In this document: piece after piece, positions 5,202 to 62,009 of the stretch
Position numbering within the stretch: the stretch's first letter is position 1
How the letters are laid out: each line of letters opens with the position of its first letter
Source of the DNA: Acidimicrobiales bacterium
Lineage (GTDB): Bacteria > Actinomycetota > Acidimicrobiia > Acidimicrobiales > Aldehydirespiratoraceae
Direction of reading: 5' to 3'
NCBI GenBank assembly: GCA_965207755.1
Contig: OZ242297.1
Coordinates: 2,789,816-2,853,815, forward strand
Length of the DNA: 64,000 bases
Position numbers and translations under genes: made by a program
The notes under the pieces: model-generated
What the model saw: only the letters and a program-made list of their open reading frames with translations
Told to the model about the DNA's origin: nothing
Databases searched by the model: none

Positions 5202-5299
5202 CTCTCAGGACACTCCAGACATCCGGCTTCGCCGATTCGCCTCGCACGCTGAGCACAATTCTTGGGAGACGCGGCACCCCCTGTCGTTCGCGTGCTTCA

Positions 5300-31678: not shown

Positions 31679-31726
31679 GAATTGGCAGCAGAAAGCACGC
31701 ATACCGTGCAAAACGCTGCCAATTCC
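31679..31726. repeat. 48-nt two-tier hairpin repeat (GAATTGGCAGC family) 3 nt after the stop codon
   Basis: The fold is GAATTGGCAGC agaaa GCACG catac CGTGC aaaac GCTGCCAATTC. Confidence 0.8.
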
Positions 31727-46222: not shown

Positions 46223-46224
46223 GC

Positions 46225-46431: not shown

Positions 46432-47618
46432 CGTCCTCCGAGGCGCAGGCCGCCCCGGCGGGCGCGCTCGACGGGGTCAGGGTGCTGGACCTGTCGTCGG
46501 TCGGGCCCGCGGCCCGGGCCACCAGGCTTCTGGCCGACTACGGCGCGGAGGTGGTGAAGGTCGGTCCGGTGCCGCGACGGGCCGGGGCCGCCACCGTTCC
46601 CCCCGCCTACGCCTACAGCGGCCACCGGGGCATGAGGCGGGTGCTGCTCGACCTCAAGTGCGACAGCGGGCGGGACGCCTTCCTCGACCTGGCCCGGGGC
46701 GCCGACGTGGTGGTGGAGAGCTTCCGTCCCGGCGTGGTCGACCGCCTCGGCATCGGCCACGGCGCGGTGCGGGCCGTCAATGAGGGTGTCGTCTACTGCT
46801 CCACCAGCGGCTACGGCCAGAGCGGCCCGAGGCGGAACTGGGCCGGCCACGACCTCAACTACCTGGCCGTCTCCGGCTACCTGCACTGCAGCGGACGCGA
46901 CGCCGGCGGCGTCCCCGCGCTGCCCGGCGCCACGGTGGCCGACATCGCCGCCGGCGGGATGCACGCCGCGCTGGCGGTCACGGCCGCCCTGCTGCGCCGG
47001 GAGCGCACCGGCCACGGCGAGCACCTCGACGTTTCGGTGGCCGACGGGGCGCTGGGGATGATGGCGCTGTACGCCGACGAGCACCTGGCCACCGGCGCCG
47101 AGCCCGGTCCGGGCCACTACATCCTCACCGGCCGCTATGCCTGCTACGGCGTTTACGCCTGCGCCGACGGCGAGTATCTGTCGGTGGCCGCCATCGAGCC
47201 CGCATTCTGGGCCAACCTGTGCCGTGCGCTGGGCTTCGAGCGCTACATCGACGCCCAGACCGATGACGATGCCCAGGACGAGATCCGCGCCGCTGTCTCG
47301 GCCGCACTGGAGACGGCCGACCGCGACGAGTGGGTGCGTCGACTCGGCCCCGCCGACTGCTGTGTCGCCCCGGTCAACAGAATCTCCGAAGCCGTCCGCG
47401 ACGAGCAGTACCTGGCCCGGGGTGCGGTGGTCGATGCCGAGCACCCCCAGGCAGGCGCCGTCGAGCAGATCAGCTCGCTGTGGGCCGGAACGGCAACGCC
47501 GGAGAGCCCGCACCGGCTGCCCGACCCCGGGGCCACCGACACCGCCGCGCTCCTGGCCGAGGCCGGCTACGACGAGACCCGCCTGGCCGGACTGACCGCG
47601 GAAGGAGCCATCGCGTGA
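46428..47618 (+). CDS. family III CoA-transferase (CaiB/BaiF, alpha-methylacyl-CoA-racemase-like)
   Basis: The N-terminal region is LDGVRVLDLSSVGPAARATRLLADYGAEVVKV. GHDLNYLA lies further on. Confidence 0.9.
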   Translation: MTSSEAQAAPAGALDGVRVLDLSSVGPAARATRLLADYGAEVVKVGPVPRRAGAATVPPAYAYSGHRGMRRVLLDLKCDSGRDAFLDLARGADVVVESFRPGVVDRLGIGHGAVRAVNEGVVYCSTSGYGQSGPRRNWAGHDLNYLAVSGYLHCSGRDAGGVPALPGATVADIAAGGMHAALAVTAALLRRERTGHGEHLDVSVADGALGMMALYADEHLATGAEPGPGHYILTGRYACYGVYACADGEYLSVAAIEPAFWANLCRALGFERYIDAQTDDDAQDEIRAAVSAALETADRDEWVRRLGPADCCVAPVNRISEAVRDEQYLARGAVVDAEHPQAGAVEQISSLWAGTATPESPHRLPDPGATDTAALLAEAGYDETRLAGLTAEGAIA

Positions 47619-47790
47619 TGTCCGCCGAACCGGCAAGCCCAACAGGCGGACGGCGGCGCCGAGTTGGATGCCGCCAATCTGATCGCGTGATGTCCGCCGA
47701 ACCGGCAAGCCCAACGGGCGGACGGCGGCGCCGAGTTGGATGCCGTCAATCTGATCGCGTGATGTCCGCCGAACCGGCAAGCCCAACAGA
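47615..47790 (+). repeat. tandem repeat, about 2.4 copies of 72 bp, each beginning GTGATG and so re-creating the upstream stop codon
   Basis: Units start at 47615, 47687 and 47759. The first GTGATG contains the CoA-transferase TGA (47616-47618). Confidence 0.9.
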
Positions 47791-47847
47791 CCCAAGACGG
47801 CCCCCACTCCCCCTGTTCACGGCGCCCTCGACCGCCACCCGATTCAC

Positions 47848-47896
47848 GAACTGGCAGCAGAATGCGCCCCATACGGGGCACCACGCTGCCAATTCC
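47848..47896. repeat. 49-nt two-tier hairpin repeat (variant of the GAATTGGCAGC family)
   Basis: The outer stem is GAACTGGCAGC...GCTGCCAATTC. The inner stem GCCCC-atac-GGGGC replaces GCACG/CGTGC. Confidence 0.75.
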
Positions 47897-47922
47897 CGGA
47901 GTGACGGGGAGGCGGCGACCGC

Positions 47923-48984
47923 ATGACCGGCGAACTGCCTGCCGGCATCGGCGAGCTGATCGGCCGGCCCGTGTACCCGCAGACGGCCGACTTCCCTGCC
48001 GAAATGGGCTACGGCTGGAACACGCTGGCCGCCACCGAGAACGGCAACCCGCTGTACTGGGAACCGGCCGTGGCCGGGATGGTCGCCGGGGACCGCATCC
48101 TGCCCCTCAGCACGCTGTCGCTGTGGATGCGGCCCCACCGCTGGGCGCCCGGCGCCACCACCGAGCAGGTCGCGCTCGGGGTCCACTTCGACCTCAAGGA
48201 GGGTCTGGGGCTCCCCGAGGCCATCATGAGCGACAACACGGTCGTGTTCCACGAGCCCGTGCGCCCCGGCGACGTGATCAGCCACCACCAGGTTCTGCGG
48301 TCGGTGAGCGGGCCCAAGACGACCCGGCTCGGCTCCGGACGGTTCTGGGTGATCGACGTCGAGTACCACAACCAGCACGCGACGCTGGTCGGTGTGGAGT
48401 CCTACACCGGTTTCGGCTACCGCCGGAGCGACCCGGCCCCAGCCGGGCAGCCTCGGGCGCCCCGTCCGACGGAGCCCCCGTCGCCGGACGAGGCTTCCGG
48501 CCCGCGGGCCAAGCCGGACCCCGCCCACGACCAGGTCCGGGTGGGCGACGCCCTGCCCGTGCTCACCCACGACGTGACCGCCACCACCGTCGTGCTCGGC
48601 GCCCTGGCCAGCCGCGACTGGCGGCCGATGCACCACGACTACCGCTTCGCCACCGAGCGAAACGGGGCCCGCGACATCTTCCTGAACACGCCCAACCAGC
48701 TCGCCTGGATCGAGCGGGCCGTCACCGACTGGACCGGGCCCCGCGGCCGGCTGGGGCGGGTCTCGTTCCGCATGCAGGATCCGGTCTTCCCCGGCGACAC
48801 CATGACCATCTCGTCGGTGGTCACGGCGGTGCCCGTCGACGACTCCGGCTGCGGCTGGGCCGAACTCGACCTGGTGCTGCGGGCCGGCGACCGGGTCTGC
48901 ACGACCGGGAGGGCCAAGGTGGCCCTGCCGATGTCGGCGGCCGACAATCCGTGGCAGCGCCGCGGCGAGGACTGGAACCCGTGA
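47923..48984 (+). CDS. double hot-dog-fold (MaoC-like) enoyl-CoA hydratase/dehydratase
   Basis: The N-terminal hot-dog ends FWVIDVEYHN. A linker follows, then the MaoC-type C-terminal half (RPMHHDYRFATERNGARDIFLNTPNQ...FPGDT). Confidence 0.8.
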   Translation: MTGELPAGIGELIGRPVYPQTADFPAEMGYGWNTLAATENGNPLYWEPAVAGMVAGDRILPLSTLSLWMRPHRWAPGATTEQVALGVHFDLKEGLGLPEAIMSDNTVVFHEPVRPGDVISHHQVLRSVSGPKTTRLGSGRFWVIDVEYHNQHATLVGVESYTGFGYRRSDPAPAGQPRAPRPTEPPSPDEASGPRAKPDPAHDQVRVGDALPVLTHDVTATTVVLGALASRDWRPMHHDYRFATERNGARDIFLNTPNQLAWIERAVTDWTGPRGRLGRVSFRMQDPVFPGDTMTISSVVTAVPVDDSGCGWAELDLVLRAGDRVCTTGRAKVALPMSAADNPWQRRGEDWNP

Positions 48985-49021
48985 TGCTCCAGTCCTCCGA
49001 CCAGGCTTGCGGGAGGCGTTG

Positions 49022-50167
49022 ATGCTCGACCTCGACTTCACCCAGGAACAGGAGATGCTGCGCGGCATGGTGCGCGGCCTGTGCAGCGAGCTCTCGCCGC
49101 TGGAGCGTGTGCGGGAGCTCGAGGACGACCCCGACGGCGTCCACCGGGAGCTCTGGCAGCGTTTCGGGGAGCTGGGCCTGTGCGGCCTGATGGTCCCCGA
49201 GAGCGCCGGCGGCTCCGGCATGAGCCTCCTCGACGGGGTCGTGCTCTACGAGGAGTTGGGGCGCTCGCTGGCCCCGCTGCCCCACTTCGTCAGCTGCGTG
49301 CTGTCCGCCGCGGCGATCACCGAGGCCGGGTCGCCGGCCCAGCAGGCCGAGCTGCTGGGCGGCATCGCGTCGGGCGAGACCATCGCGACCGTCGGGTGGC
49401 TGGAGCCGGGCGGGGGCTACAAGCCCCGCGGCGTGCAGCTGGCCGCCCGCGCCGACGGAGACGGCTTCGTGCTGGACGGCGCCAAGGAGCATGTCCCGTT
49501 CGCGGCGGCCGCCGACCTCGTCGTCGTGCTGGCCCGCAGCGGCGACGACGACACCGATATCGACCTGTTCGTGGTGGAGGCGGGCGCCCCGGGCCTGAGC
49601 CTCGACCAGCGGATGTCGATCTCGTCGGACACCCAGTACCGGGCCACCCTCGACGGCGTACACGTCGGTGCCGGCGCCCGCCTGGGCACCCCCGACGCTG
49701 CTGCGGGCGCCGGCTGGGAGGCCTGGCAGCGCGCCATGCACGCCGGCGCGATCCTGGCCGCGGCCCAGGCCGTCGGCGGCGCCTCGGCCGCCCTCGAGAT
49801 GACCGTCGAGTACGCCAAGGAGAGGCGCCAGTTCGACAAGGCCCTGGCCGAGTTCCAGGCCGTCTCGCACTACCTGGCCGACGCCCGCACCGCCCTCGAC
49901 GGCGCCGAACTGCTGGTGTACGAGGCGGCCTGGGCCCACAGCACGGGCCGCTCCACCGAGCGGCTGGCCCCCATGGCCAAGATGTTCGCCTGCCGCACCT
50001 ACCGGGAGATCACCGCCATGTGCCAGCAGGTGTTCGGCGGCATCGGCTTCACTGTGGAGTACGACATCCAGCTCTACTTCCGCCGAGCCAAGCAGCTCCA
50101 GCTCTCCTGGTGGGACCAGGCGACCTGCGAGGACCGCATCGCCGACGCCGTCCTGGGCGCCCGCTAA
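49022..50167 (+). CDS. acyl-CoA dehydrogenase
   Basis: The protein begins MLDLDFTQEQEMLRGMV and contains EYAKERRQFDKALAEFQAV. ATG 49022 follows GGGAGG. The ORF-track TTG at 49007 is probably too early. Confidence 0.9.
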   Translation: MLDLDFTQEQEMLRGMVRGLCSELSPLERVRELEDDPDGVHRELWQRFGELGLCGLMVPESAGGSGMSLLDGVVLYEELGRSLAPLPHFVSCVLSAAAITEAGSPAQQAELLGGIASGETIATVGWLEPGGGYKPRGVQLAARADGDGFVLDGAKEHVPFAAAADLVVVLARSGDDDTDIDLFVVEAGAPGLSLDQRMSISSDTQYRATLDGVHVGAGARLGTPDAAAGAGWEAWQRAMHAGAILAAAQAVGGASAALEMTVEYAKERRQFDKALAEFQAVSHYLADARTALDGAELLVYEAAWAHSTGRSTERLAPMAKMFACRTYREITAMCQQVFGGIGFTVEYDIQLYFRRAKQLQLSWWDQATCEDRIADAVLGAR

Positions 50168-50572: not shown

Positions 50573-51568
50573 ATGATAGTTACCAAGTGTCTCACCCCCC
50601 GGCGGGTCGATCTGCTGCTGGGCGGGGCGGTGACGGTGGCCGCGGTGACCGGCCTGGTGTCCTGGGGCGTCGGCAGCGGCTGGGCCCGCTGGGTGACGGT
50701 CGTCCATGCTCTGGCCGGCCTGAGCCTTCTGGCGCTGGCCCCGGCCAAGCTCCGCGGCTCGGTGCGCACCGGGCTGAAGCGTCGCCGGGCCACCCGGTGG
50801 CTGTCGATGCTGTTGGGCTTGCTGGTGGCAGCCACCGTCGTCCTTGGCATCCTGCACGCCACCGGCCTGTGGCACGGGGTGGGCTACTGGTCGGCGCTGT
50901 GGACCCATTTCCTGCTTGCCGCGCTGCTGGCCCCGCTGGTGGTCTGGCACATCGCAAGCCGGCCCGGCCGTCCCCGCGTGGCCGACCTCGACCGCAGGAC
51001 CCTTGTCGGCGGCAGCGCCGCGGTCGCGGCCGCCGGCATCGCCTACGGGGTCCAGCAACTCGTGGTCGGCGACAACCGGCGCTTCACCGGCTCCCACGAG
51101 ATCGCCTCGTTCAACCCGGCGGAGATGCCGACCACCATGTGGCTCAACGACCGCTCCCCGAGGGTGCCGGCCTCGGGGTGGGAGTTGGTGGTCGCCGGCC
51201 GGACGGTCCCGCTGGAGGATCTGCACGCCCGAGCCGCTCCCGTCGAGGCCGATCTCGACTGCACCGGCGGATGGTGGAGCCGCCAGTCGTGGGACGCGGT
51301 GCCGCTGGCCGAGCTGATGCCGACGGTGGACGCGGCCACACTCGAAGTCACATCGCTGACCGGCTACAGCCGGCTGTTCCCGGCCCGCGACGCCGCCAAC
51401 CTGTACCTGGCCGTCGGCTACAACGGCGAGCCCCTGCGCCGGGGCCACGGCGCGCCCGTCCGTCTGGTGGCGCCGGGGCGCCGGGGCTTCTGGTGGGTGA
51501 AGTGGGTGAGCCGCATCGACCCCGTCGACCGCCCGTGGTGGCTCCAACTGCCGTTCCCGCTGGAGTGA
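50573..51568 (+). CDS. membrane-anchored molybdopterin-binding oxidoreductase (sulfite-oxidase/YedY-like domain)
   Basis: Four N-terminal TM helices are followed by DCTGGWWS, GYNGEPLRRGHGAPVRLVAPGRRGFWWVKWV. Confidence 0.75.
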   Translation: MIVTKCLTPRRVDLLLGGAVTVAAVTGLVSWGVGSGWARWVTVVHALAGLSLLALAPAKLRGSVRTGLKRRRATRWLSMLLGLLVAATVVLGILHATGLWHGVGYWSALWTHFLLAALLAPLVVWHIASRPGRPRVADLDRRTLVGGSAAVAAAGIAYGVQQLVVGDNRRFTGSHEIASFNPAEMPTTMWLNDRSPRVPASGWELVVAGRTVPLEDLHARAAPVEADLDCTGGWWSRQSWDAVPLAELMPTVDAATLEVTSLTGYSRLFPARDAANLYLAVGYNGEPLRRGHGAPVRLVAPGRRGFWWVKWVSRIDPVDRPWWLQLPFPLE

Positions 51569-51689: not shown

Positions 51690-53474
51690 ATGCGACTCGC
51701 TTGTCTATTAGTGGCGGCCGCGCTGGCGGCTACGGCGTGCTCGGATGAGCCGCCCGCGGGCGACGGCCTAACCGACGAGAGCGTTCAGGCCGAGCCGGCC
51801 GCCACCGACGACGGCGCAAGCGCCGGGGCGCCCGACCAGTCGACGCCTCCGCCGGTCCCGGGGACGTTCACCGCGGTGGCGGCCGGGTTCTGGCACACCT
51901 GCGCGATCCGCTCCGACGGCCGGATCGAATGCTGGGGCGTCAACCGGGACGGGCTGCTGGACGCGCCCGTGGGTCGGTTCAAGGCGATCTCTGCCGGGCC
52001 CGGCCACAACTGCGCCATCCGCACCGACGGCGGCATCGAGTGCTGGGGCGAGGAGTTCCCAGGAATGGCCGACGCGCCCGTCGGCGAATTCGTCGCGGTG
52101 TCCGCGGGCGCCGGATACACGTGCGCGCTGCGTGACGACGGAGACGTCGACTGCTGGGGCGGTTCCGACACTCAACTCTTGACCCCGCCCGGTGGGCACT
52201 TCACCGCGGTGGCCGCGGGGCACCGTCACGCGTGCGTGCTGCGCGAGGGTGGAACGGTGCTCTGCTGGGGCGCCAACGAAGAAGGCCAGGCCGAAGGGCG
52301 CACCCAACGCTTCAGTGACATCGCCGCCGGGGCCGACCACACCTGCGGGGTGAAACTCGACGGCACCGTCGAATGCTGGGGATCCGACTACCTGGCCAAG
52401 TCCGACGCGCCCGGCGGGACCTTCACGACGCTCGCGGCCGGGGTAGACCACACGTGCGCGGTGAGCACCGGCGGCACAGCCGAGTGCTGGGGATCGGACG
52501 CCTTCGGTGCGACTCCGGCACCCGACGGCCAATTCCAGTCGGTCGCGGCCGCGGCCGACCACAGTTGCGGGCTGCGCACAGACGGCACCATCCAGTGCTG
52601 GGGCAGGCGCTTCATCGCGGGCGCCGAACCTCCCGGCGAGCAGCTTGCATCCCTGGTTGCCGGCGGCAACCACACCTGCGGGCTGCGCCCCGACGGCACC
52701 GTCGAATGCTGGGGCACAGACCTCGTGGGTCGGATGGAACCGCCCGGTGGACGCTTCGATTCGATGGCCACCGGGAACTACTTCGCCTGCGGGCTGCGCC
52801 CCGACGGCACCGTCGAATGCTGGGGATTCGACCGCTTCGGCGTGCTCGACGTCCCCGACGGAGCGTTCCATGCCGTGACGGCCGGCGTCGGCCACGCCTG
52901 CGCCCTGCGAGGCAACGGCACCGTCGAATGCTGGGGTTCCAACTCGCACGGACAGGCCGACACCCCCGCAGACACCTTCGCCGCCATCTCGGCAGGGAGC
53001 TCGCACACCTGCGGCATCCTCCTCGACACCGGTTGGGCCGAGTGCTGGGGAAACCCGTACGCGGGGAGGCTGGATGCCCCAGCGGGGGCCTTCATCGCCG
53101 TCGCAGCCGGCGGCCAGGAGCAGCCTCCTCCAGAGCGCCAACTCCGCGGCCCTCAGGAGTCCGTCGCAGCCGGTGACAGCCACACCTGCGGGCTGCGCCC
53201 CGACGGCGCCGCCGAGTGCTGGGGATCCAACTCGCACGGGCAGAGCGAGGCCCCCGCAGGCGCCTTCACGGCTGTCTCGACCGGCGTGCATTCCTGCGGC
53301 TTGCGCCCCGACGGCGCCGTCGAGTGCTGGGGAACCGACGAAGCGCCCTCCGCAGGGGAGTTCGCCGCCGTGGAGGTCGGCCAGGGCTACACCTGCGGGC
53401 TGCGTCCCGACGGCGCCGCCGAGTGCTGGGGAACGCTGCGGGCGCCGCCCGAGGGAGTGACCTACACCGGCTGA
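51690..53474 (+). CDS. RCC1-repeat (beta-propeller) lipoprotein
   Basis: The lipobox is LAATAC. About 11 repeats of the form HTCAIRSDGRIECWG follow. Confidence 0.85.
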   Translation: MRLACLLVAAALAATACSDEPPAGDGLTDESVQAEPAATDDGASAGAPDQSTPPPVPGTFTAVAAGFWHTCAIRSDGRIECWGVNRDGLLDAPVGRFKAISAGPGHNCAIRTDGGIECWGEEFPGMADAPVGEFVAVSAGAGYTCALRDDGDVDCWGGSDTQLLTPPGGHFTAVAAGHRHACVLREGGTVLCWGANEEGQAEGRTQRFSDIAAGADHTCGVKLDGTVECWGSDYLAKSDAPGGTFTTLAAGVDHTCAVSTGGTAECWGSDAFGATPAPDGQFQSVAAAADHSCGLRTDGTIQCWGRRFIAGAEPPGEQLASLVAGGNHTCGLRPDGTVECWGTDLVGRMEPPGGRFDSMATGNYFACGLRPDGTVECWGFDRFGVLDVPDGAFHAVTAGVGHACALRGNGTVECWGSNSHGQADTPADTFAAISAGSSHTCGILLDTGWAECWGNPYAGRLDAPAGAFIAVAAGGQEQPPPERQLRGPQESVAAGDSHTCGLRPDGAAECWGSNSHGQSEAPAGAFTAVSTGVHSCGLRPDGAVECWGTDEAPSAGEFAAVEVGQGYTCGLRPDGAAECWGTLRAPPEGVTYTG

Positions 53475-53480
53475 CCTTCC

Positions 53481-53600
53481 GAATTGGCAGCACAATGCAC
53501 GCCACCCGTGCATCACGCTGCCAATTCCCTGGTGGCGCCAACCGGCGCTCTCGAATTGGCAGCACAATGCACGCCATCCGTGCATCACGCTGCCAATTCC
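53481..53600. repeat. two copies of the 48-nt GAATTGGCAGC hairpin, 72 bp apart
   Basis: The copies lie at 53481-53528 and 53553-53600. Each folds as GAATTGGCAGC acaa TGCACG cca[c/t]c CGTGCA tcac GCTGCCAATTC. Confidence 0.85.
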
Positions 53601-53644
53601 CTTTGGCCGGGGCGTGGGGGGCGGGGGGCGGGGCATACTGAGGC

Positions 53645-55900
53645 GTGTCCTGGTGGCGGAGGCTCGATCCGGGCCGGATTGCGATCCTGGCGGTGATGGT
53701 GCTGGGAGTGGCCGCGTTCCTGACCCGGGGACAGTGGCTCGGAACCGTCGAGACCGCCGTGGACGTGGCCGTGGACGCCGTCGACGTCGCCGTGGACGGC
53801 GAGATCGATCACGACGACCTGGTGACCGGGGGCGAGGTGGTCGCTCCCCCGGTCGTGGACGTGGAGGATCCCGAGGACTTCGACGTCGAGACCGAGCGGC
53901 TGTACCGGATCGTTCCCGGAAGCGGATCCCGGGCCAGCTACCACATCGAGGAACGCCTCGGCGGGCTGTCGCGCACCACGGTGGGCACCACCTCGGTCAT
54001 GGCCGGCGAGATCGCGGTGAACCTCGTCGATCTCGCCGCCAGCCGGGTCGGCGAGATCGTGGTCAACGTGGAGATGTTCCAGTCCGACTCCGCCCTGCGC
54101 GACAAGCGCATCCGCCACGACTACCTGGAGTCGAGCCACTGGCCCTTCGTGCGGTTCCGGCCCGCTCAGATCGAGGGCCTCGACGCCGGCTTCGCCGACG
54201 GCCTGTCCTACGAGATCGCCGTCACCGGCGAACTCACCGTCAAGGAGACCACCCGCACCGAGACCTTCGCCGGCGCCGTCACCGTCACCCCCGACGCCCT
54301 CGTCGCGACGATGTCGGCCACCGTGCTGACCAGCCACTACGACGTCGGTCCCATCAACATCGCCCGCCTCGTCCACACCTCCGACGAGGTGATCCTGACC
54401 TTCGAGCTGGTCGCCGACCGGGTCGAGTTCGGCTCGGCGCCGGCCGGCGACCTGCGCCGCGAGATCCCGGCGCCCGAGTTCGCCGGCGGCCGGTTCGCGG
54501 CCACAGTGCAGCCCATCCTCGAGACACGCTGCGTGAGCTGCCACACGTCGAACGGCCCGGCCTGGAGCACCCTCGCCCTCGACACCGCCGGCGACGCGGC
54601 CGCCATCGCCGGCGACATCGCCTTCGTCACCGGGATCGGCTTCATGCCCCCATGGCTGCCCTCGGACCTGAGCCCGCAGTACATGCACGACTGGTCGCTC
54701 AGCGACGCCGAGAAGGCCGCCATCAAGCAGTGGGCCGACGCCGGCGGCGGTCTCGACGTGCGGCCCGACACGCCGCTGGTGGCCCGCGTCCAGGCCATCC
54801 TGCCGGTGGAGGAGGACCAGAAGATCGGGCCCCGCGACGGCCTGTACACCGGCTACTCACGCCCCGACGGCCGGCCGGTCAAGAAGGACGACTACCGCTG
54901 CCAGGTCCACGAGGTGGCCGATCCCGAGGGCGACGGCACCTGGGTCAAGGGCTTCGAGTTCCGGCCCGACCAGGTGGAGGTGGTGCACCACGCCATCGTC
55001 TACCGGGTGCCGGCCGCGGCGGCTTCCGAGATCGCGGCCAGGATCGCAGCCGAGGACCGCATCGAGGCGGCCGAGGGCTTCTCCGACGAGCCGGGCTGGA
55101 CGTGCTTCGGCCTGTCGGGGCTCAACTCCCAGGGCGTGTACTCGATCCAGGGCTGGGCGCCGGGCCAGTCGCCGACCATCTACCCCGAGGGTTACGGCAT
55201 ATACCTGTGGCCCGGCGACATGATCGTCAACCAGATCCACTACCACTACGACCACGACACCCCGCCCGACGGCTCCTGGATCATCCTCGACACCGCCACC
55301 GGCGCCGAGGTCGCCGCGGGCATCACTCACATCACCGGCGACAGCTACCTCACCCCGGCCGAGGTCCCCTGCACACCCGAGGAGGCTGCAATCGCGGCCG
55401 AGCGGACCGCCACTATCGACGGCTACGTCAACCTGTGCCTGCGTTCCAACGTGCTCGACGAGATCGCCGAGAAGTACGACGCGTTCGCCCGCTTCATCCC
55501 CGACGCCCTCCTGGCGGTATGCAGAGGCACCGTCGACGACTACGACGACCTCGACGGCAGCGTCGGCTACAGCTCCTGCGACCTGCCGGCCCGGGACACC
55601 GGCACCATCCACACCGTGCTGGGCCACATGCACGAGTTCGGCGCGGCCTACCGGATGACGCTGCATCCCGACACGCCGGAGGAGCGGATCCTGCTCGACA
55701 TCCCGGTGTGGGACTTCGAATGGCAACTCAACTACGAGCCGGTGGAGCAGATCCGCATCGAGCGGGGCGACACGGTGCGCTTCGAGTGCTGGTGGGACCG
55801 CACGCTGCAGTTCATGCCCGAGCCCCGCTACATCACCTGGAACGAGGGCACCGTCGACGAGATGTGCTTCTCCAGCATCTCGGTGATCCCCGACGTCTAA
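53645..55900 (+). CDS. membrane-anchored fusion of a YceI-like domain, a CxxCH (PSCyt1-like) module and a PHM/DBH-like copper monooxygenase
   Basis: The N-terminus has a TM segment. FAATVQPILETRCVSCH carries the CxxCH motif. The PHM-type ligand pattern is VVHHAIVY, IHYHYDH, GHMHEFG and DEMCF. Confidence 0.7.
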   Translation: MSWWRRLDPGRIAILAVMVLGVAAFLTRGQWLGTVETAVDVAVDAVDVAVDGEIDHDDLVTGGEVVAPPVVDVEDPEDFDVETERLYRIVPGSGSRASYHIEERLGGLSRTTVGTTSVMAGEIAVNLVDLAASRVGEIVVNVEMFQSDSALRDKRIRHDYLESSHWPFVRFRPAQIEGLDAGFADGLSYEIAVTGELTVKETTRTETFAGAVTVTPDALVATMSATVLTSHYDVGPINIARLVHTSDEVILTFELVADRVEFGSAPAGDLRREIPAPEFAGGRFAATVQPILETRCVSCHTSNGPAWSTLALDTAGDAAAIAGDIAFVTGIGFMPPWLPSDLSPQYMHDWSLSDAEKAAIKQWADAGGGLDVRPDTPLVARVQAILPVEEDQKIGPRDGLYTGYSRPDGRPVKKDDYRCQVHEVADPEGDGTWVKGFEFRPDQVEVVHHAIVYRVPAAAASEIAARIAAEDRIEAAEGFSDEPGWTCFGLSGLNSQGVYSIQGWAPGQSPTIYPEGYGIYLWPGDMIVNQIHYHYDHDTPPDGSWIILDTATGAEVAAGITHITGDSYLTPAEVPCTPEEAAIAAERTATIDGYVNLCLRSNVLDEIAEKYDAFARFIPDALLAVCRGTVDDYDDLDGSVGYSSCDLPARDTGTIHTVLGHMHEFGAAYRMTLHPDTPEERILLDIPVWDFEWQLNYEPVEQIRIERGDTVRFECWWDRTLQFMPEPRYITWNEGTVDEMCFSSISVIPDV

Positions 55901-56890: not shown

Positions 56891-59449
56891 GTGACGCAGC
56901 CGAGACCACTGTCCTCGGCTCGCAAGGTTGCAGGTGCGGTTTGGGTTGCCGTTGTTGTCGCACTCCTTGCGGGCGGCTGCGCTCAAGACGATCACAACCC
57001 AGACGCGACCCGGGCCAGGGCGACAGGCGCCGAGGGCGCCGCGTCGCCGTCCTCCACGAGCACTTCAAGACCCGTCGTGGACATGCCGAGCCGGACGGCC
57101 GCCGAGGAGACAGCCACCGGGGAGCGCGAACCCGGGTCGGCGACTGCGGTGGCGTCCCCCACTCCCTTCGAGGCCGACGACCTCTCGGAGACCGATGACG
57201 GCACTCAGATTGATGCCCCCATAGACGGACTCGACGATGAGGCTCCCCCGGAGTCTCCGGAGCCCACGAGCCCGGAGATCGCCGACCCGTTCCCATGGCT
57301 CATCCAGCGCCGCCTCGGACCCGATCCGACCGGCTGTGGATTGTCGTTCGTCGTGCCCGGGGAGAGCGTCGGACTGTCGGCCGGAGGGTTCGCTCCCCAT
57401 TCGGAGGTGAGCTTCACCGCCCGTGGGGCATCGCTCACGGGGACCGAGTTGCCCCCGCCGACGATTCCGCCGACGACAGCCGACGGCGAGGGCCTCATCG
57501 ACGTGGTGTGGACCGTCCCGGAGGCGCCGCCGGCCGGGGAGGATCCGGAGCCCAGGGCCTACATCGCCGAAGCCGTCGGCGTCGGGCGGGGCGGCGAGGA
57601 GTACGTGGCGTACATGGTGCAGCCGCTGGTGGCCTATCCGGGCACGACGATCTGCGCGCTGGCCGACGCGGCCGCCACCACCTTGGGGCAGCCGGTCCGC
57701 ATCCCGGTGCTGGACAACGACGTCGCCCCCGAGGGCGGCTGGCTGGATCCGGCGTCGGTGAGTACCCGGCCGGTCGCAGGAGGCGAACTGGCCGTAGACC
57801 CCACCGACGGGTCGCTGACGTTCACGCCCGACCCGGGCTTCGCGGGAACGGCCACGGCGACGTACGCGGTCTACGACAACTGGCAGATCGGGATGGAGGG
57901 CGAGGTCACCGTGACCGTAGACGCCGGATGCACGATCGAGATCCCCCCGGACACCAGGGAGATCCATGGCACCGAGGGCGACGACGTGATCTGCGCCGAC
58001 GATCTGGGCGACACATCCGGTTGGGATCGGAACCGGTTCCACGTCATCTACGCCCTAGGCGGCGACGACATCATCCTCGGAAGCAACGGAGTGGACTGGA
58101 TCTACACCGGCGAGGGAACCGACGTCGTGTACGGACGGGGCAGTGACGATCGGATAATCGTGTACGGCGAGGACAGGGTCTACGGCGGCTCCGGTTTCGA
58201 CACCATCTACTCGGTGGACCTCTTGATGGAGGTCTTCGACGACGATGACGGCTACCTCATCGAGTTGTCCTCGACGACCCTCTTCGAGCAACGCGCGCCC
58301 ATTGCAGCCGACGACCACCGGCATCTGAACCCGTTCGCGACGCAGGTCATCGAAGTGCTCGAGAACGACTACAGCCCCATGGACAGTCTCGATTGGGAGA
58401 CCATGTCCATCACCAAGCCTCCGACGCTCGGCTCAGCGCGGGTCGTCGACTCGCCGTGGTTCGGCAACGCCATCGAGTACGCACCCATGGGTGCCTCGGG
58501 CACCGACGAACTCTCCTATTCGATCTGCGACATCCTCTCGCGATGCACTACCGCCGAGGTTCACATCACCCTCGGCACGGACCACTGCACCATCATGGGC
58601 ACCGCGGGGCCCGACACGCTCACGGGCACGCCGGGCGACGACATCATCTGCGGGCTCGGAGGAGACGACCGGATCGACGGCCTGGGCGGCAACGACGTGA
58701 TCATCGCCGGCCCGGGCGACGACACGGTCGTGGGAGGTGCGGGCGATGACCGGATCTGGGGCGGTGACGGCGACGACACGCTCGACGGCGGCTCGGAGGA
58801 CGACATGCTCTGGGGCGGACCCGGAGACGACACCCTCAACGGGGGACCCGGCCACGACACGCTCCTTGGAGGCGACGGCGGTGACAGCCCCAACGGCGGC
58901 GAAGGAAGCGACCGTCTGTGGGGCGGTGACGGCGACGACACGCTCAATGGCGGCTCGGGCGACGACATGCTCTGGGGCGGACCCGGCTCGGACGATCTCA
59001 ACGGTGGGCCCGGCCACGACACGCTATGGGGTGATGCCAGTACAGGCGTGGGCGACGACACCATCGACGGCGGCGACGGCAACGACATAATCCTCGGTGA
59101 TTTCGGCCGCGACACGCTCATGGGCGGAGCCGGCGACGACCTGATCTGGGGAGGCTCGGGCGACGACACGATTCGCGGGGGCTCGGGCGACGACGAGATC
59201 CTGGACAACCGCGGCGACAACCGGCTGGAGGGCGGGGTCGGAGACGATCGCATACACGGCGGCAACGGCGACGACACGCTCGACGGCGGCGACGGGGACG
59301 ACTACCTCACCGGCGACGACGGCGACGACACGCTCGACGGCGGCGAGGGATCCGACTATCTCACCGGCGACGACGGCACCGACACCTGTCTCGGCGGCGA
59401 GATCACCGCTCTGTGCGAGTCCTTCAGCACCGATTCGACCGAGCCCTGA
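56891..59449 (+). CDS. RTX-like calcium-binding repeat lipoprotein with cadherin/VCBS-like modules
   Basis: The lipobox is LLAGGC. The motifs VLDNDVAPEG and VLENDYSPMD are present. The C-terminal 280 aa or so consist of more than 25 GGxGxDxhx nonapeptides. Confidence 0.85.
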   Translation: MTQPRPLSSARKVAGAVWVAVVVALLAGGCAQDDHNPDATRARATGAEGAASPSSTSTSRPVVDMPSRTAAEETATGEREPGSATAVASPTPFEADDLSETDDGTQIDAPIDGLDDEAPPESPEPTSPEIADPFPWLIQRRLGPDPTGCGLSFVVPGESVGLSAGGFAPHSEVSFTARGASLTGTELPPPTIPPTTADGEGLIDVVWTVPEAPPAGEDPEPRAYIAEAVGVGRGGEEYVAYMVQPLVAYPGTTICALADAAATTLGQPVRIPVLDNDVAPEGGWLDPASVSTRPVAGGELAVDPTDGSLTFTPDPGFAGTATATYAVYDNWQIGMEGEVTVTVDAGCTIEIPPDTREIHGTEGDDVICADDLGDTSGWDRNRFHVIYALGGDDIILGSNGVDWIYTGEGTDVVYGRGSDDRIIVYGEDRVYGGSGFDTIYSVDLLMEVFDDDDGYLIELSSTTLFEQRAPIAADDHRHLNPFATQVIEVLENDYSPMDSLDWETMSITKPPTLGSARVVDSPWFGNAIEYAPMGASGTDELSYSICDILSRCTTAEVHITLGTDHCTIMGTAGPDTLTGTPGDDIICGLGGDDRIDGLGGNDVIIAGPGDDTVVGGAGDDRIWGGDGDDTLDGGSEDDMLWGGPGDDTLNGGPGHDTLLGGDGGDSPNGGEGSDRLWGGDGDDTLNGGSGDDMLWGGPGSDDLNGGPGHDTLWGDASTGVGDDTIDGGDGNDIILGDFGRDTLMGGAGDDLIWGGSGDDTIRGGSGDDEILDNRGDNRLEGGVGDDRIHGGNGDDTLDGGDGDDYLTGDDGDDTLDGGEGSDYLTGDDGTDTCLGGEITALCESFSTDSTEP

Positions 59450-59625: not shown

Positions 59626-60828
59626 ATGCACATCGGGTACACGGCTGAGCAGGAGGCTCTGCGGGACGAACTGCGGGCCTACTACGACGGGCTGCTCACC
59701 GACGACGTGCGGGCCGAGTTGGGGAACGAGCCCGGCGTGGGTGCGGCTCATCGCCGGATCGTGCGCCAGATGGGCGCCGACGGCTGGCTGGCGGTGGGCT
59801 GGCCGGTCCAGTACGGCGGGCGAGGCCTCTCCGCGGTGGAGCAGTTCATCGTGTTCGACGAGTCGGTTGCGCTGGGCGCGCCGATCCCGATGCTCACCAT
59901 CAACACTGTCGGCCCGACGATCATGCAGTACGGCACCGACGAGCAGAAGGACTTCTTCCTGCCCCGCATCGCCGGCGGCGAGATCACCTTCTGCATCGGC
60001 TACTCCGAGCCCGACGCCGGCACCGACCTCGCCTCGCTCACCACCCGGGCGGTGCGCGACGGCGAGACATACGTGCTCAACGGCCAGAAGACCTGGACGT
60101 CACTGGCCGCCGACGCCGACTACATCTGGCTGGCGGCCCGCACCGACCCCGACGTGCCCAAGCACAAGGGCATCTCGCTGTTCTGCATCCCGATGGACAC
60201 GCCCGGCATCAGCATCGAGCCCCTCGACCTGCTGTCGTCACACAACATCAACCACACCTTCTTCGACGACTGCCGGGTGCCGGCGTCCACCCTCATCGGC
60301 GAGGAGAACCGGGGCTGGGGACTGATCACCAGCCAGCTCAACCGGGAGCGGGTGACGATCTGCTCGTCGGGCATGGTCACCAAGCGCTTCGAGGAGTGCG
60401 TGGAATGGGCCAGGTCGGCCAAGCGGGCCGACGGCTCCTACGTGATCGACGAGCCGTGGGTGCAGCGCAACCTGGCTGAGGTGGCCGCCAGGCTGGAGTT
60501 CCTGCGGCTGGCCAACTGGAAGGTGGCCTGGACGGCGGCCAACAGGATCGACGGCGCCGAGCCCGACATGGACACCATCGCCGGGTTCGTGGCCGACTCC
60601 TCCGCGGTGAAGGTGTCGGGCACCGAGTTCTACGTCGACGCCTACCGCAGGCTGATGCAGGTCTACGGCCAGCGCTCCTACGTGGTGGAGGGCTCGCCCG
60701 GATACCTGACCCGCCTGGAGATGATGTACCGCTCGACCGTCATCCTGACCTTCGGCGGCGGCACCAACGAGATGCAGCGCGACCTGATCTCGCAGTTCGG
60801 CCTCGGCTACCCCCGAGCCTCCCGCTAG
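59626..60828 (+). CDS. acyl-CoA dehydrogenase (FadE-like)
   Basis: Diagnostic segments are GYSEPDAGTDLASL and GGGTNEMQRDLISQ. GGGAG precedes the ATG. Confidence 0.9.
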   Translation: MHIGYTAEQEALRDELRAYYDGLLTDDVRAELGNEPGVGAAHRRIVRQMGADGWLAVGWPVQYGGRGLSAVEQFIVFDESVALGAPIPMLTINTVGPTIMQYGTDEQKDFFLPRIAGGEITFCIGYSEPDAGTDLASLTTRAVRDGETYVLNGQKTWTSLAADADYIWLAARTDPDVPKHKGISLFCIPMDTPGISIEPLDLLSSHNINHTFFDDCRVPASTLIGEENRGWGLITSQLNRERVTICSSGMVTKRFEECVEWARSAKRADGSYVIDEPWVQRNLAEVAARLEFLRLANWKVAWTAANRIDGAEPDMDTIAGFVADSSAVKVSGTEFYVDAYRRLMQVYGQRSYVVEGSPGYLTRLEMMYRSTVILTFGGGTNEMQRDLISQFGLGYPRASR

Positions 60829-60842
60829 CAGGGGACCGACCG

Positions 60843-62009
60843 ATGGACTTCGAGCTGGGCGAGGAGGAGCAGGCCATACGGGACCTGACCGCTCAGGTCC
60901 TGGCCGACATGTCCTCGCACGAACGTCTGAAGGCTCTGGCCGCCGAGGGCGACCACGTCGACCGCAAGGCGTGGGCCGCGCTGGCCGGCACCGGCGTCGC
61001 CGGAGCCGTCGTGCCCGAGGCGCACGGCGGCCTCGGTCTGGGATTCCTGGCCACCGCGGTGGCCCTGGAGGAGGTAGGTCGCCACGCCTCGCCCGTGCCG
61101 CTGCTGACCACCGCTGTGATGGGAGCCATGCCGATCGCCACCTACGGCACCGAGGCCCAGCAGGCCTCCTGGCTTCCGGGCCTGGCCGACGGGTCGGTGC
61201 TGGCGTGCGCCGCCCTGGCCGAGGACGGCTCCGCCCCGGATGAGCCGACCACGTCGGCGCGGGCCGGCAACGGCATCTTCACGCTCGACGGCACCAAGGA
61301 CCTGGTCGCGGGAGGCCTCGACGCCGATGTCGCGCTGGTTCCGGCCCGTCTCGACAACGGCGAGGTCGGCATGTTCCTGGTGCCCACCGGCGCCGAAGGC
61401 CTCGAGCGCTTGGCGGTGGAGGTGACGACCGGCCGCCCGGAGGCCCGCTTCGAACTGTCGGGAGTGCGGGTCGGCGCTGAGGCGCTGCTCGGTGGCGGGG
61501 CATCCGACGGCGCGGCATCCGAAGGTGCGGAGATCGTCCGCTTCATCGAGCGGCACGCCAATGTGGGGCTGTGCATGATGATGGCCGGATCGGCCCGGGC
61601 CGCCATCGAGATGACCGCCGGCTACGCCAAGCAGCGCCACCAGTTCGACCGGCCCATCGCCACCTTCCAGGCGGTGAGCCAGCGGGCGGGCGACTCCTAC
61701 ATCGACTCCGAGGCGATCTGGCTGACCGCCTGCCAGGCTGCCTGGCGCCTCTCGGCCGGCCTGCCCGCCGACCGGGAGATCGCCATCGCCAAGTACTGGG
61801 CCTGCGAGGGCGGCTTCCGGGTGGTACACGCCGCGGTGCATGTCCACGGCGGTGTGGGAGTCGACCGCGACTACCCGCTGCACCGCCACTTCCTGGCCGC
61901 CCGCCACATGGAGCTCACCCTCGGCCACGCCGAGGAGCAGTTGGCCGATCTGGGCCGCCAGATCGCTACGCGGGGGCAGAACCGTGGCCGGACGAGACGC
62001 TATTCGTAG
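60843..62009 (+). CDS. acyl-CoA dehydrogenase-family protein, paired with the upstream ACAD
   Basis: The protein begins MDFELGEEEQAIRD and contains GYAKQRHQFDRPIATFQAV. It starts 14 nt after the previous ACAD. Confidence 0.85.
   Translation: MDFELGEEEQAIRDLTAQVLADMSSHERLKALAAEGDHVDRKAWAALAGTGVAGAVVPEAHGGLGLGFLATAVALEEVGRHASPVPLLTTAVMGAMPIATYGTEAQQASWLPGLADGSVLACAALAEDGSAPDEPTTSARAGNGIFTLDGTKDLVAGGLDADVALVPARLDNGEVGMFLVPTGAEGLERLAVEVTTGRPEARFELSGVRVGAEALLGGGASDGAASEGAEIVRFIERHANVGLCMMMAGSARAAIEMTAGYAKQRHQFDRPIATFQAVSQRAGDSYIDSEAIWLTACQAAWRLSAGLPADREIAIAKYWACEGGFRVVHAAVHVHGGVGVDRDYPLHRHFLAARHMELTLGHAEEQLADLGRQIATRGQNRGRTRRYS

What the first reader, a model, noticed from the sequence alone, without database searches (positions are those of the whole stretch)
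53645..55900. Bacterial PHM/DBH-like copper monooxygenase fused to YceI-like and CxxCH modules
The 751-aa protein has four parts:
- an N-terminal TM anchor;
- a YceI-like region (..RASYHIEERLGG..TSVMAGEIAVNL..);
- a PSCyt1-like segment with a haem-c-type CVSCH motif (FAATVQPILETRCVSCH);
- a C-terminal half with the full ligand pattern of peptidylglycine alpha-hydroxylating monooxygenase, namely HH (VVHHAIVY), H (IHYHYDH), HxH (GHMHEFG) and M (DEMCF).

If real, an electron-donating haem domain tethered to a two-copper monooxygenase on the cell surface would be an unusual self-contained redox enzyme. The substrate is unknown. It is flanked by secreted repeat proteins (RCC1 upstream, RTX-like downstream).
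Basis: partly seen in the sequence, partly recalled or inferred. Interest (0 to 1): 0.55.

Follow-up and report, generated by a model that had tools for sequence, protein, structure and literature searches.

The report
Haem-wired bacterial PHM-like copper monooxygenase
A membrane-anchored surface protein of an acidimicrobial bacterium joins a lipid/quinone-binding barrel and a haem-c electron carrier to a two-copper oxygenase of the type that makes noradrenaline and amidated hormones in animals; this enzyme family is widespread in bacteria, and I found no paper that studies it.

Summary

- **YceI domain:** it passes Pfam's cutoff and matches YceI crystal structures.
- **Catalytic half:** by single-sequence Pfam it is only weakly PHM-like (below cutoff). 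A profile of 83 distant relatives hits human DBH (5e-12) and rat PHM (4e-9). A pLDDT-96 model retrieves only PHM/DBH as its top 31 PDB hits.
- **Copper ligands:** HH448/449, H532, H661/H663 and M740 align with the PHM/DBH ligands and are kept in 81-83 of 83 relatives.
- **Haem module:** CxxCH plus an MPPW methionine is invariant. In 38 of 80 acidimicrobial species the gene directly follows a ccmABCDEFGH cytochrome-c maturation operon.

The haem-copper fusion is not rare: about 5,300 50%-identity clusters carry the catalytic domain, mostly with CxxCH (Chloroflexota, Deinococcus, Actinomycetota). The added YceI barrel and membrane anchor mark an Acidimicrobiia-centred subfamily that databases call only "YceI family protein".

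PHM's peptide-carboxylate anchors are absent, so it is not a peptide amidase. The substrate is unknown.

Best model: quinol or another donor reduces haem c, which passes electrons to CuH and then CuM, where O2 is activated outside the membrane. It is a new, uncharacterised variant of a known enzyme kind.

The parts
53645..55900 (+). Whole gene: 751-aa TM-anchor / YceI / cytochrome c / PHM-DBH-like two-copper monooxygenase
53669..53725 (+). Single N-terminal hydrophobic segment (aa 9-27, PGRIAILAVMVLGVAAFLT) preceded by RR/R. Inferred signal-anchor with the rest of the protein outside the cytoplasm.
   Evidence: Kyte-Doolittle maximum 1.96 and the only such segment; helix 9-26 in the model; topology is inferred
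53741..53890 (+). Acidic Val/Asp/Glu-rich, length-variable, disordered tether (aa 33-82)
   Evidence: pLDDT below 50 for aa 27-59; composition; indel-rich in the alignment
53894..54421 (+). YceI-like beta-barrel (aa 84-259)
   Evidence: PF04264 E=2.7e-13, 51 bits against a cutoff of 23.7; PDB YceI sequences at 9e-5; Foldseek 1wub/7bwl/1y0g/2x32 at 1e-8 to 1e-6, TM 0.7-0.77
54494..54739 (+). Mono-haem class-I-like cytochrome c module (aa 284-365). CxxCH at aa 296-300 (nt 54530-54544). Candidate axial Met334 in FMPPW (nt 54644-54646).
   Evidence: PF13442 E=0.0017 (below cutoff) for this protein, but 32/32 homologues match, best 3.9e-6; invariant C296, C299, H300, M334-P-P-W; kept in 64/83 distant relatives; QcrC hit at 7e-4
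54818..55354 (+). Cu monooxygenase N-terminal beta-sandwich (aa 392-570) with the CuH-type site H448, H449, H532. It carries a family-specific helix at aa 457-476.
   Evidence: PF01082 E=0.023 here, 66/83 relatives up to 9e-10; the vvHH and QvHY motifs align to PHM H107/H108 and H172; model pLDDT 96
55370..55579 (+). Family-specific helical insertion between the two sandwiches (aa 576-645), bracketed by invariant C576, C598, C626 and C645
   Evidence: helices at aa 578-590, 600-611, 613-625 and 630-633; all four Cys are 83/83; the PHM alignment leaves this region unmatched
55562..55897 (+). Cu monooxygenase C-terminal beta-sandwich (aa 640-751) with the CuM-type site H661, H663, M740
   Evidence: PF03712 E=0.14 here, 77/83 relatives up to 5e-14; gHmHelG aligns to DBH LHTHLTG and DEMC to PHM/DBH M314/M487
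53479..53602 (+). Context: two tandem ~50-nt hairpin elements between the RCC1 stop and the gene start (REP-like or U-less terminator)
   Evidence: RNA fold -78.5 kcal/mol, z=-8.4; diverged copy at 31680 after another gene's stop; same element at the same place in L008 and L031
55911..56789 (+). Context: ROK-family kinase starting 11 bp after the stop, possibly co-transcribed; no evident functional link
   Evidence: PF00480 E=1.6e-49; follows the gene in 23/80 related loci at variable distance

Best explanation
The gene encodes an extracytoplasmic, membrane-tethered, self-wired copper monooxygenase. Its C-terminal half is a homologue of the PHM/DBH non-coupled two-copper enzymes. One site, of CuH type (H448, H449, H532), would receive electrons. 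The other, of CuM type (H661, H663, M740), would bind O2 and hydroxylate a C-H bond of a substrate. Bacteria lack the ascorbate / cytochrome b561 supply used in animal secretory vesicles. Here the reductant is built in: a covalently bound haem c (C296-x-x-C299-H300, axial M334) is fused directly upstream and would pass single electrons to CuH. In this Acidimicrobiia-centred subfamily an N-terminal signal-anchor, an acidic tether and a YceI barrel are added. The most likely role of the YceI barrel is to hold an isoprenoid quinol from the membrane as the electron entry point (quinol to haem c to CuH to CuM). This would compensate for the lack of a soluble periplasmic cytochrome c pool in actinobacteria. 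Shown here: the domain identities, ligand conservation, fold, family size and ccm linkage. Inferred: topology, metal and haem loading, direction of electron flow and the role of YceI. Unknown: the substrate. It is not a C-terminal glycine peptide.
For: Fold: Foldseek top 31 PDB hits are PHM/DBH only, E down to 5.8e-13, probability 1.00, and the next fold is at 2e-5. The catalytic-half model has pLDDT 96.2 and pTM 0.91. Sequence: profile against the PDB gives DBH 5.1e-12 and PHM 3.8e-9, with the HH, H, HxH and M motifs aligned to the known ligands and two PHM disulfide cysteine pairs aligned. Conservation: six ligands kept in 81-83/83 relatives at 25-50% identity, and eight Cys kept in 83/83. 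Pfam: PF03712 in 77/83 and PF01082 in 66/83. Haem: CxxCH+MPPW invariant, present in 64/83 and 114/114 further relatives. The gene lies directly downstream, on the same strand, of ccmABCDEFGH plus a TPR gene in 38/80 species-level genomes. Copper context: a cytochrome-less relative sits directly downstream of a CopC-CopD gene. YceI. Precedents from the literature: YceI barrels carry UQ-8 or octaprenyl ligands and are fused or operonic with cytochromes (PMC9113575). The YceI-containing protein Cbp2D has a c-type cytochrome domain that reduces the Cu(II) of a copper monooxygenase (LPMO) in place of ascorbate (PMC8981238).
Against: The window protein alone scores below Pfam's curated cutoffs for PF01082 (15.3 vs 30 bits), PF03712 (12.1 vs 23) and PF13442 (19.1 vs 27). 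No metal, haem or activity data exist. In the window itself the gene is not next to ccm; that operon is absent from the 64 kb. No YceI protein is known to act as a quinol dehydrogenase. Most family members lack YceI (63/83), so YceI cannot be essential to the core mechanism. Neighbourhoods give no substrate clue.
Confidence: 0.68

Rival explanations
1. The enzyme core and haem wiring are the same, but the YceI barrel is a substrate-presenting module. It would extract a membrane isoprenoid lipid (menaquinone, polyprenol, carotenoid or hopanoid-like lipid) and offer it to CuM for hydroxylation. The haem would be reduced by some other donor.
For: YceI barrels bind octaprenyl-type lipids in most crystal structures (PMC9113575). 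The membrane anchor and flexible acidic tether would let the barrel shuttle between the membrane and the active site. PHM's peptide-binding residues are replaced by hydrophobic or small residues (F742, S744, L659). A family-specific helical insertion could form a hydrophobic lid.
Against: Most relatives (63/83) lack YceI yet keep the same active site and insertion, so the substrate is probably shared and does not depend on YceI. No lipid-biosynthesis genes are linked.
Confidence: 0.25
2. The copper domain does not hydroxylate an organic substrate. It would act as an oxidase or peroxide/radical-detoxifying terminal electron sink at the membrane surface, for example quenching lipid peroxyl radicals or reducing O2/H2O2, analogous to the BcnA (YceI) - LcoA (cytochrome b561) system.
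For: A YceI plus cytochrome pairing has been tied experimentally to lipid-peroxidation defence (PMC9113575). The genes are stand-alone with no pathway partners. Uncoupled PHM-type and LPMO-type coppers can reduce O2 to H2O2 (PMC8981238).
Against: The full His3 / His2Met two-site arrangement, which is dedicated to substrate-coupled O2 activation in every characterised member, is strictly conserved. A simple oxidase would not need both sites or the conserved cleft insertion.
Confidence: 0.12
3. It is a true bacterial orthologue of peptidylglycine alpha-hydroxylating monooxygenase that amidates secreted peptides.
For: PHM is the top structural hit.
Against: The residues that anchor the glycine carboxylate and backbone in PHM (R240 two residues before HxH, and N316 and Y318 after M314; identities from my own knowledge of PHM) are L659, F742 and S744 here and are not conserved in the family consensus. 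No lyase (PAL) partner or precursor-peptide genes are nearby. Identity to PHM is only 13-15%.
Confidence: 0.03
4. Artefact: the motifs are chance matches, or the copper/haem domains are degenerate, so the protein is simply a YceI lipocalin with a long C-terminal extension, as databases name it.
For: Public annotation is 'YceI family protein'. The single-sequence Pfam hits for the other domains are sub-threshold.
Against: Profile E-values are 5e-12 and 4e-9 to DBH and PHM. Structural probability is 1.00. Ligand conservation is near-total over 83-197 relatives. The gene is linked to the ccm operon.
Confidence: 0.01

Closest known systems
Peptidylglycine alpha-hydroxylating monooxygenase (PHM domain of PAM) and dopamine beta-hydroxylase / tyramine beta-monooxygenase / MOXD1 (Pfam PF01082 + PF03712)
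   Same: Two-beta-sandwich fold. CuH-type His3 site (HH...H) and CuM-type His2Met site (HxH...M), aligned motif for motif. Two disulfide cysteine pairs align (C419/C487 to PHM C81/C126, and C715/C741 to PHM C293/C315). Extracytoplasmic or lumenal location.
   Different: Bacterial. Only 13-15% identity. About 60-aa cysteine-stapled helical insertion between the domains, plus an extra helix after the HH motif. The PHM substrate anchors R240/N316/Y318 are not conserved. No DOMON domain or PAL partner. The reductant is presumably a fused haem c rather than ascorbate / cytochrome b561.
Uncharacterised bacterial two-domain 'monooxygenase' proteins (cytochrome c + Cu2 monooxygenase, about 470-490 aa; e.g. 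Deinococcus yavapaiensis and Chloroflexota MAGs; UniRef name 'Copper type II ascorbate-dependent monooxygenase...')
   Same: Same CxxCH+MPPW haem module fused to the same catalytic domain, with the same eight cysteines and helical insertion. 25-50% identity.
   Different: They have a cleavable-looking signal peptide, no YceI and no membrane anchor. Databases recognise their Cu domain, whereas the window's subfamily is labelled only YceI. They are not linked to ccm in the four loci sampled.
Cellvibrio japonicus Cbp2D/Cbp2E (CBM2 - YceI-like X158 - FN3 - c-type cytochromes X183/X132), candidate electron donors to LPMOs
   Same: A secreted protein combining a YceI (UQ-8-binding type) domain with a mono-haem c-type cytochrome. 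The cytochrome reduces a copper monooxygenase and replaces ascorbate (PMC8981238). The S. degradans X158 structure 2x32 is among the model's structural hits.
   Different: There the copper enzyme (LPMO, a single histidine-brace Cu) is a separate protein and the partner carries a carbohydrate-binding module. Here the copper enzyme is PHM-type, has two coppers and is fused in cis. No CBM is present.
BcnA (YceI lipocalin) - LcoA (cytochrome b561) system; lcoA-bcnA fusions in alphaproteobacteria
   Same: A YceI barrel physically or genetically coupled to a membrane-associated cytochrome on the outer face of the membrane, with a quinone proposed as the bound redox ligand (PMC9113575).
   Different: It uses a b-type transmembrane cytochrome, has no copper domain, and its assigned role is lipid-peroxyl detoxification.
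Fungal cellobiose dehydrogenase cytochrome domain to LPMO
   Same: A tethered haem domain delivers single electrons to a copper oxygenase (as summarised in PMC8981238).
   Different: Haem b, a flavin dehydrogenase as the electron source, unrelated folds, eukaryotic.

Membership tests
PHM/DBH copper type II monooxygenases (PF01082 + PF03712) | Two consecutive beta-sandwich domains with the PHM fold | tested here: met
   Foldseek top 31 PDB hits are all PHM/DBH, E 5.8e-13 to 1e-9, probability 1.00, TM (target) 0.50-0.67; the next fold is at 2e-5. Model pLDDT 96.2.
PHM/DBH copper type II monooxygenases (PF01082 + PF03712) | CuH site: HH motif plus a third His in the N-domain | tested here: met
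   H448/H449 align to PHM H107/H108, and H532 to PHM H172 (chain offset worked out from the alignment). Conserved in 82/83, 83/83 and 83/83 relatives.
PHM/DBH copper type II monooxygenases (PF01082 + PF03712) | CuM site: HxH plus Met in the C-domain | tested here: met
   gHmHelG aligns to DBH LHTHLTG. DEMC aligns to PHM DEMC (M314) and DBH EEMC. Conserved in 81/83, 81/83 and 82/83 relatives.
PHM/DBH copper type II monooxygenases (PF01082 + PF03712) | Scores above Pfam's curated gathering cutoffs | tested here: not met
   Window protein: PF01082 15.3 bits (cutoff 30), PF03712 12.1 bits (cutoff 23). Relatives reach E=9e-10 and 5e-14. The family profile reaches DBH/PHM at 5e-12 and 4e-9. It is therefore a divergent branch and not a core Pfam member.
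PHM/DBH copper type II monooxygenases (PF01082 + PF03712) | Copper-site geometry (three-ligand sites about 11 A apart across a solvent cleft) and actual Cu binding | not testable with these tools
PHM/DBH copper type II monooxygenases (PF01082 + PF03712) | Ascorbate-dependent two-electron supply | not testable with these tools
   Inference only: the fused haem c is proposed to replace ascorbate.
PHM sensu stricto (peptide amidation) | Glycine-carboxylate and backbone anchors (R240, N316, Y318; residue identities from my own knowledge of PHM) | tested here: not met
   The equivalent positions are L659, F742 and S744. They are not conserved in the family consensus.
YceI-like (PF04264) | Profile match above cutoff and the 8-stranded lipocalin-like barrel | tested here: met
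   51 bits against a cutoff of 23.7, E=2.7e-13. PDB YceI sequences at 9e-5. Foldseek 1wub/7bwl/1y0g/5ixh/2x32, TM 0.66-0.77. The LRDKRIRHDFLES...WPF motif is invariant.
YceI-like (PF04264) | Bound isoprenoid or quinone ligand | not testable with these tools
   Known for other members (PMC9113575, PMC8981238). Not assessable for this protein.
Class-I-type c cytochromes (PF13442/PF00034) | CxxCH haem-attachment motif and a distal Met ligand, conserved | tested here: met
   C296, C299, H300 and M334-P-P-W are invariant in 32 homologues. CxxCH occurs in 64/83 relatives, with the MPPW Met, Pro, Pro and Trp each kept in 65-67/83, and CxxCH in 114/114 further relatives.
Class-I-type c cytochromes (PF13442/PF00034) | Scores above the Pfam gathering cutoff | tested here: not met
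   19.1 bits against a cutoff of 27 for the window protein. 32/32 homologues match at E<=0.1, best 3.9e-6. The profile hits QcrC at 7e-4.
Class-I-type c cytochromes (PF13442/PF00034) | Access to a cytochrome c maturation system on the extracytoplasmic side | tested here: inconclusive
   The gene directly follows ccmABCDEFGH+TPR in 38/80 related species. No ccm genes lie in this 64-kb window, and the rest of the genome was not available.
   No PF07635 hit at E<=1 for the protein, and none among 32 or 83 relatives. A motif resemblance (F..V.PIL...C..CH...L.LDT) remains.

The most novel reading that the evidence does not exclude
This would be a self-sufficient, quinol-driven extracellular C-H hydroxylase. 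A YceI-bound menaquinol taken from the membrane reduces a fused haem c, which feeds the CuH/CuM pair of a PHM-type enzyme. That would make it the first characterised prokaryotic member of the PHM/DBH class and the first in which the electron supply is hard-wired in one polypeptide. It would also imply that the animal neuroendocrine copper monooxygenases descend from an ancient, widespread bacterial haem-copper enzyme family with a still-unknown envelope or environmental substrate.
Probability: 0.3. Interest if true: 0.8.

Novelty: new variant of a known kind. Interest (0 to 1): 0.6.

Why it matters
PHM and DBH are textbook enzymes. Their central puzzles are how electrons reach CuH and how they cross about 11 A to CuM, and these have been studied only in animal proteins that depend on diffusible ascorbate. 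A comparative metalloproteome review lists PHM and DBM only in the eukaryotic column (PMC7435645). Every paper in the held library that cites PF01082 or PF03712 concerns eukaryotes.

This work shows a large bacterial family: about 5,300 50%-identity clusters, 301 of them at E<=1e-30. In it the reductant is a covalently attached haem, so the electron transfer steps would be triggerable and spectroscopically visible in a single polypeptide.

The Acidimicrobiia subfamily adds a quinone-type lipocalin and a membrane anchor. Together with Cbp2D-LPMO and BcnA-LcoA, this supports a recurring design in which a YceI barrel and a cytochrome power extracytoplasmic redox chemistry.

It also exposes an annotation gap. 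Hundreds of these proteins are named only 'YceI family protein'. A cultured carrier of the two-domain form, Deinococcus yavapaiensis, makes experiments feasible.

Tried and rejected
- A single-sequence search of the PDB found nothing relevant, and a profile of close homologues reached PHM only at E about 0.35. Significance needed the profile of distant relatives.
- Model coordinates are not exposed, so copper-site geometry, haem-to-CuH distance and inter-domain PAE could not be checked.
- Four literature searches found no paper on bacterial PHM/DBH-like or cytochrome c-fused versions. Absence from this library is not proof of absence.
- Substrate inference from gene context failed. The window flanks are acyl-CoA dehydrogenases, a CoA-transferase, MaoC, enoyl-CoA hydratase, a PLP decarboxylase and a sulfatase. 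Seven neighbourhoods of distant relatives share no recurring partner, apart from CopCD next to one cytochrome-less member.
- RCC1 and Mo-oxidoreductase upstream are conserved only within the window's own clade (24-25/80 loci), and the RTX protein in none, so I rejected a functional unit with the secreted repeat proteins.
- The PSCyt1 assignment is rejected.
- I looked for the ccm operon in the window and found only a generic ABC ATPase at 37% identity.
- No sigma-70-like promoter or canonical terminator lies near the gene.
Full report
**Observation.** The ORF 53645-55900 (+) exists as described: GTG start, 751 aa. It is the true coding frame in this ~70% GC DNA, with GC3 0.95 and GC2 0.46. Homologues start at the same MSWWRRLD. 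The only strongly hydrophobic segment is aa 9-27, which is preceded by arginines. It is followed by an acidic, low-confidence, length-variable tether at aa 33-82. One correction concerns the neighbours. The gene immediately downstream is a ROK-family kinase, 11 bp after the stop, and the RTX/Big_9 protein is one gene further on.

**Domain tests on the protein alone.** Pfam gives YceI at E=2.7e-13, above its cutoff. It also gives three sub-threshold but collinear hits: Cytochrome_CBB3 (aa 287-346, E=0.0017), Cu2_monooxygen (aa 411-534, E=0.023) and Cu2_monoox_C (aa 657-743, E=0.14). No PSCyt1 hit appears. NCBIfam sees only a weak YceI match. A single-sequence PDB search is uninformative.

**Close homologues.** The protein has 291 homologues in the word-indexed search. 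The top 120 are full length at 55-93% identity, come from Acidimicrobiia/Actinomycetota MAGs, and are named at most 'YceI family protein'. In 32 of them, C296/C299/H300, M334-P-P-W, H448/H449, H532, H661-M-H663, E739-M740-C741 and eight further cysteines are invariant. Scanned one by one, 32/32 match YceI, 32/32 Cytochrome_CBB3 (best 3.9e-6), 31/32 Cu2_monooxygen (best 6.4e-6) and 15/32 Cu2_monoox_C.

**Size of the family.** A profile of the C-terminal half (aa 385-751) was run exhaustively against 1.84 billion cluster representatives. It found 5,346 clusters at E<=1e-3, 2,353 at E<=1e-10 and 301 at E<=1e-30, with match positions that imply varied N-terminal architectures.

**Distant relatives.** I examined 83 relatives at 25-50% identity.
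- PF03712 matches 77 (best 5e-14), PF01082 matches 66 (best 9e-10), a cytochrome c family about 50-57, and YceI 20.
- Proposed copper ligands: H448 82/83, H449 83/83, H532 83/83, H661 81/83, H663 81/83, M740 82/83.
- Eight cysteines are kept in 83/83.
- CxxCH plus MPPW is present in 64/83.
- In 114 further relatives of a two-domain member, CxxCH and EMC are present in 114/114.

The haem-copper fusion is therefore the norm for this bacterial family and not a curiosity of this gene.

**Link to PHM/DBH.** The profile of the 83 relatives hits human dopamine beta-hydroxylase at 5.1e-12 and rat PHM at 3.8e-9 among PDB sequences (confirmed with a 96-sequence profile). The printed alignments show these correspondences:
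- family vvHH on PHM TVHH (H107/H108, chain offset +44 derived from the alignment) and DBH LVHH;
- QvHY on PHM QVHY (H172);
- gHmHelG on DBH LHTHLTG;
- DEMC on PHM DEMC (M314) and DBH EEMC;
- C419/C487 and C715/C741 on the cysteines that form the C81-C126 and C293-C315 disulfides in PHM (pairings from my own knowledge).

**Structure.** The full-length AlphaFold2 model has pLDDT 78. A model of the catalytic half built on 96 sequences has pLDDT 96.2 and pTM 0.91. Both retrieve only PHM and DBH as the top 31 PDB hits, at E down to 5.8e-13 and probability 1.00. The next fold, generic jelly-rolls, is at 2e-5. The full-length model also matches YceI crystal structures at 1e-8 to 1e-6, including the UQ-8-binding S. 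degradans X158 domain 2x32. Compared with PHM the family has extra helices: aa 457-476, and a ~60-residue insertion at aa 576-645 bracketed by four invariant cysteines.

**Not a peptide amidase.** The residues that hold the glycine carboxylate and backbone in PHM are R240, N316 and Y318 (my own knowledge of PHM). They correspond here to L659, F742 and S744, and they are not conserved in the family. No PAL-like or precursor-peptide genes are nearby.

**Haem-c evidence from context.** In two relatives at about 60% identity the gene lies directly downstream of a complete System I operon, ccmA-B-C-D-E-F-G-H plus a TPR/CcmI-like gene. I fetched 80 species-level genome loci, all Acidimicrobiia-type MAGs, many titled Candidatus Aldehydirespirator(aceae) or Microthrix (taxonomy).
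- 38 have this ccm operon immediately upstream on the same strand.
- 24-25, the window's own clade, instead have acyl-CoA dehydrogenase, a membrane Mo-oxidoreductase and RCC1 upstream, and ROK downstream.
- None has the RTX protein.

Inherited synteny inflates the count. Even so, retention across 51-85% protein identity is strong contextual support that the protein is a Ccm client, which means a real extracytoplasmic c-type cytochrome. The window itself contains no ccm genes.

**Copper context.** A cytochrome-less relative and its tandem paralogue sit directly downstream of a CopC-CopD gene and near a MauG/CCP di-haem peroxidase. The other distant relatives sampled are stand-alone genes without recurring partners. 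The window flanks encode unrelated acyl-CoA metabolism. The substrate therefore cannot be inferred.

**Mechanism.**
- Shown: the domain identities, ligand conservation, family size and ccm linkage.
- Inferred: N-in/C-out topology from the single signal-anchor; haem attachment at C296/C299 with H300 and M334 as axial ligands; electron flow from haem c to CuH to CuM, where O2 is activated and a C-H bond hydroxylated, as in PHM/DBH.

The fused haem plausibly replaces the ascorbate / cytochrome b561 supply of animal vesicles.

**Role of YceI.** The literature gives a direct precedent.
- YceI barrels usually contain UQ-8 or octaprenyl ligands and are operonic or fused with cytochromes (PMC9113575).
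- The YceI-containing Cbp2D has a c-type cytochrome domain that reduces the copper of LPMOs in place of ascorbate (PMC8981238).

I therefore favour YceI as a quinol-holding electron entry point. This also fits the absence of a soluble cytochrome c pool in actinobacteria (my own knowledge). The main rival is that YceI presents an isoprenoid lipid as substrate. Because 63/83 relatives lack YceI, it is an accessory to a shared core chemistry.

**Novelty.** Databases already recognise the catalytic domain in the two-domain relatives: NCBI names them 'monooxygenase', and UniRef 'Copper type II ascorbate-dependent monooxygenase...', including in cultured Deinococcus yavapaiensis. I found no paper characterising any bacterial member. 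A metalloproteome review lists PHM/DBM as eukaryotic only. The three-domain, membrane-anchored form is annotated only as YceI. I rate it a new variant of a known kind, of real interest to copper-enzyme specialists, with interest 0.6.

Noticed in passing
window 53479-53530 and 53551-53602; diverged copy at 31680-31701: Two tandem copies of a ~50-nt element with nested 11-bp and 7-bp inverted repeats (AATTGGCAGCACAATGCACGCCAYCCGTGCATCACGCTGCCAATT) fill the gap between the RCC1 stop and the target gene. The RNA fold is -78.5 kcal/mol, z=-8.4. A third, diverged copy lies just after the stop of ORF 30434-31675. The same element sits at the same place in relatives L008 and L031. It is probably a REP-like element or a U-less terminator.
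   Followed up: partly
window 1-6000, with tRNA at 5987-6061 (-): The first 6 kb have GC 0.60-0.62 against about 0.71 elsewhere, and they end at a tRNA gene. This suggests a horizontally acquired island integrated at a tRNA. A second tRNA lies at 23764-23836 (+).
   Followed up: no
L001 1050-7910; L004 410-7507; 38 of loci L006-L085: Acidimicrobiia carry a complete System I (ccmABCDEFGH + TPR/CcmI) cytochrome c maturation operon. From my own knowledge most Actinomycetota are described as using System II (ResBC/CcsBA), so this lineage may be an exception worth checking.
   Followed up: partly
window 50573-51568 (+): A 331-aa protein with about four N-terminal hydrophobic segments fused to a sulfite-oxidase/MsrP-type molybdopterin domain (PF00174, E=3e-17). 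It is conserved two genes upstream of the target in 24/80 related loci. It could be a membrane-anchored MsrP/YedY-like fusion.
   Followed up: partly
window 51690-53474 (+) and 56891-59449 (+): A lipoprotein-like protein with 12 RCC1_2 repeats, and an 852-aa Big_9/cadherin-like plus RTX nonapeptide-repeat protein. These are eukaryote-like or adhesin-type repeat proteins. They fit the sponge-associated lineages reported for Aldehydirespiratoraceae/UBA11606 (PMC11706023). The RTX gene is absent from this position in all 80 relatives.
   Followed up: partly
L088 5217-9305 and L089 332-4420: In a distant cytochrome-less branch, two tandem paralogues of the Cu monooxygenase domain lie directly downstream of a CopC-CopD fusion. 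A YtkA-like protein and a MauG/CCP di-haem peroxidase lie upstream. This could be a copper-delivery and redox-partner cluster for this enzyme family.
   Followed up: no
catalytic-half model ma8087ebde23c against the PDB: The best global superpositions are with PHM H108A-citrate chain 6ala_A (TM 0.67, rmsd 4.1 A) and DBH chain 4zel_A (TMq 0.58). As I recall, these are 'closed' conformers with the two copper sites brought together, so the predicted resting conformation may be closed. This was not verified.
   Followed up: no
window 44999-50167 and 59626-62009: There is a dense cluster of four acyl-CoA dehydrogenase paralogues, with a family III CoA-transferase, a MaoC-type hydratase, an enoyl-CoA hydratase and an HpcH/HpaI aldolase, surrounding the locus. 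This suggests a lipid, steroid or aromatic side-chain degradation region that the target gene and its neighbours interrupt.
   Followed up: no
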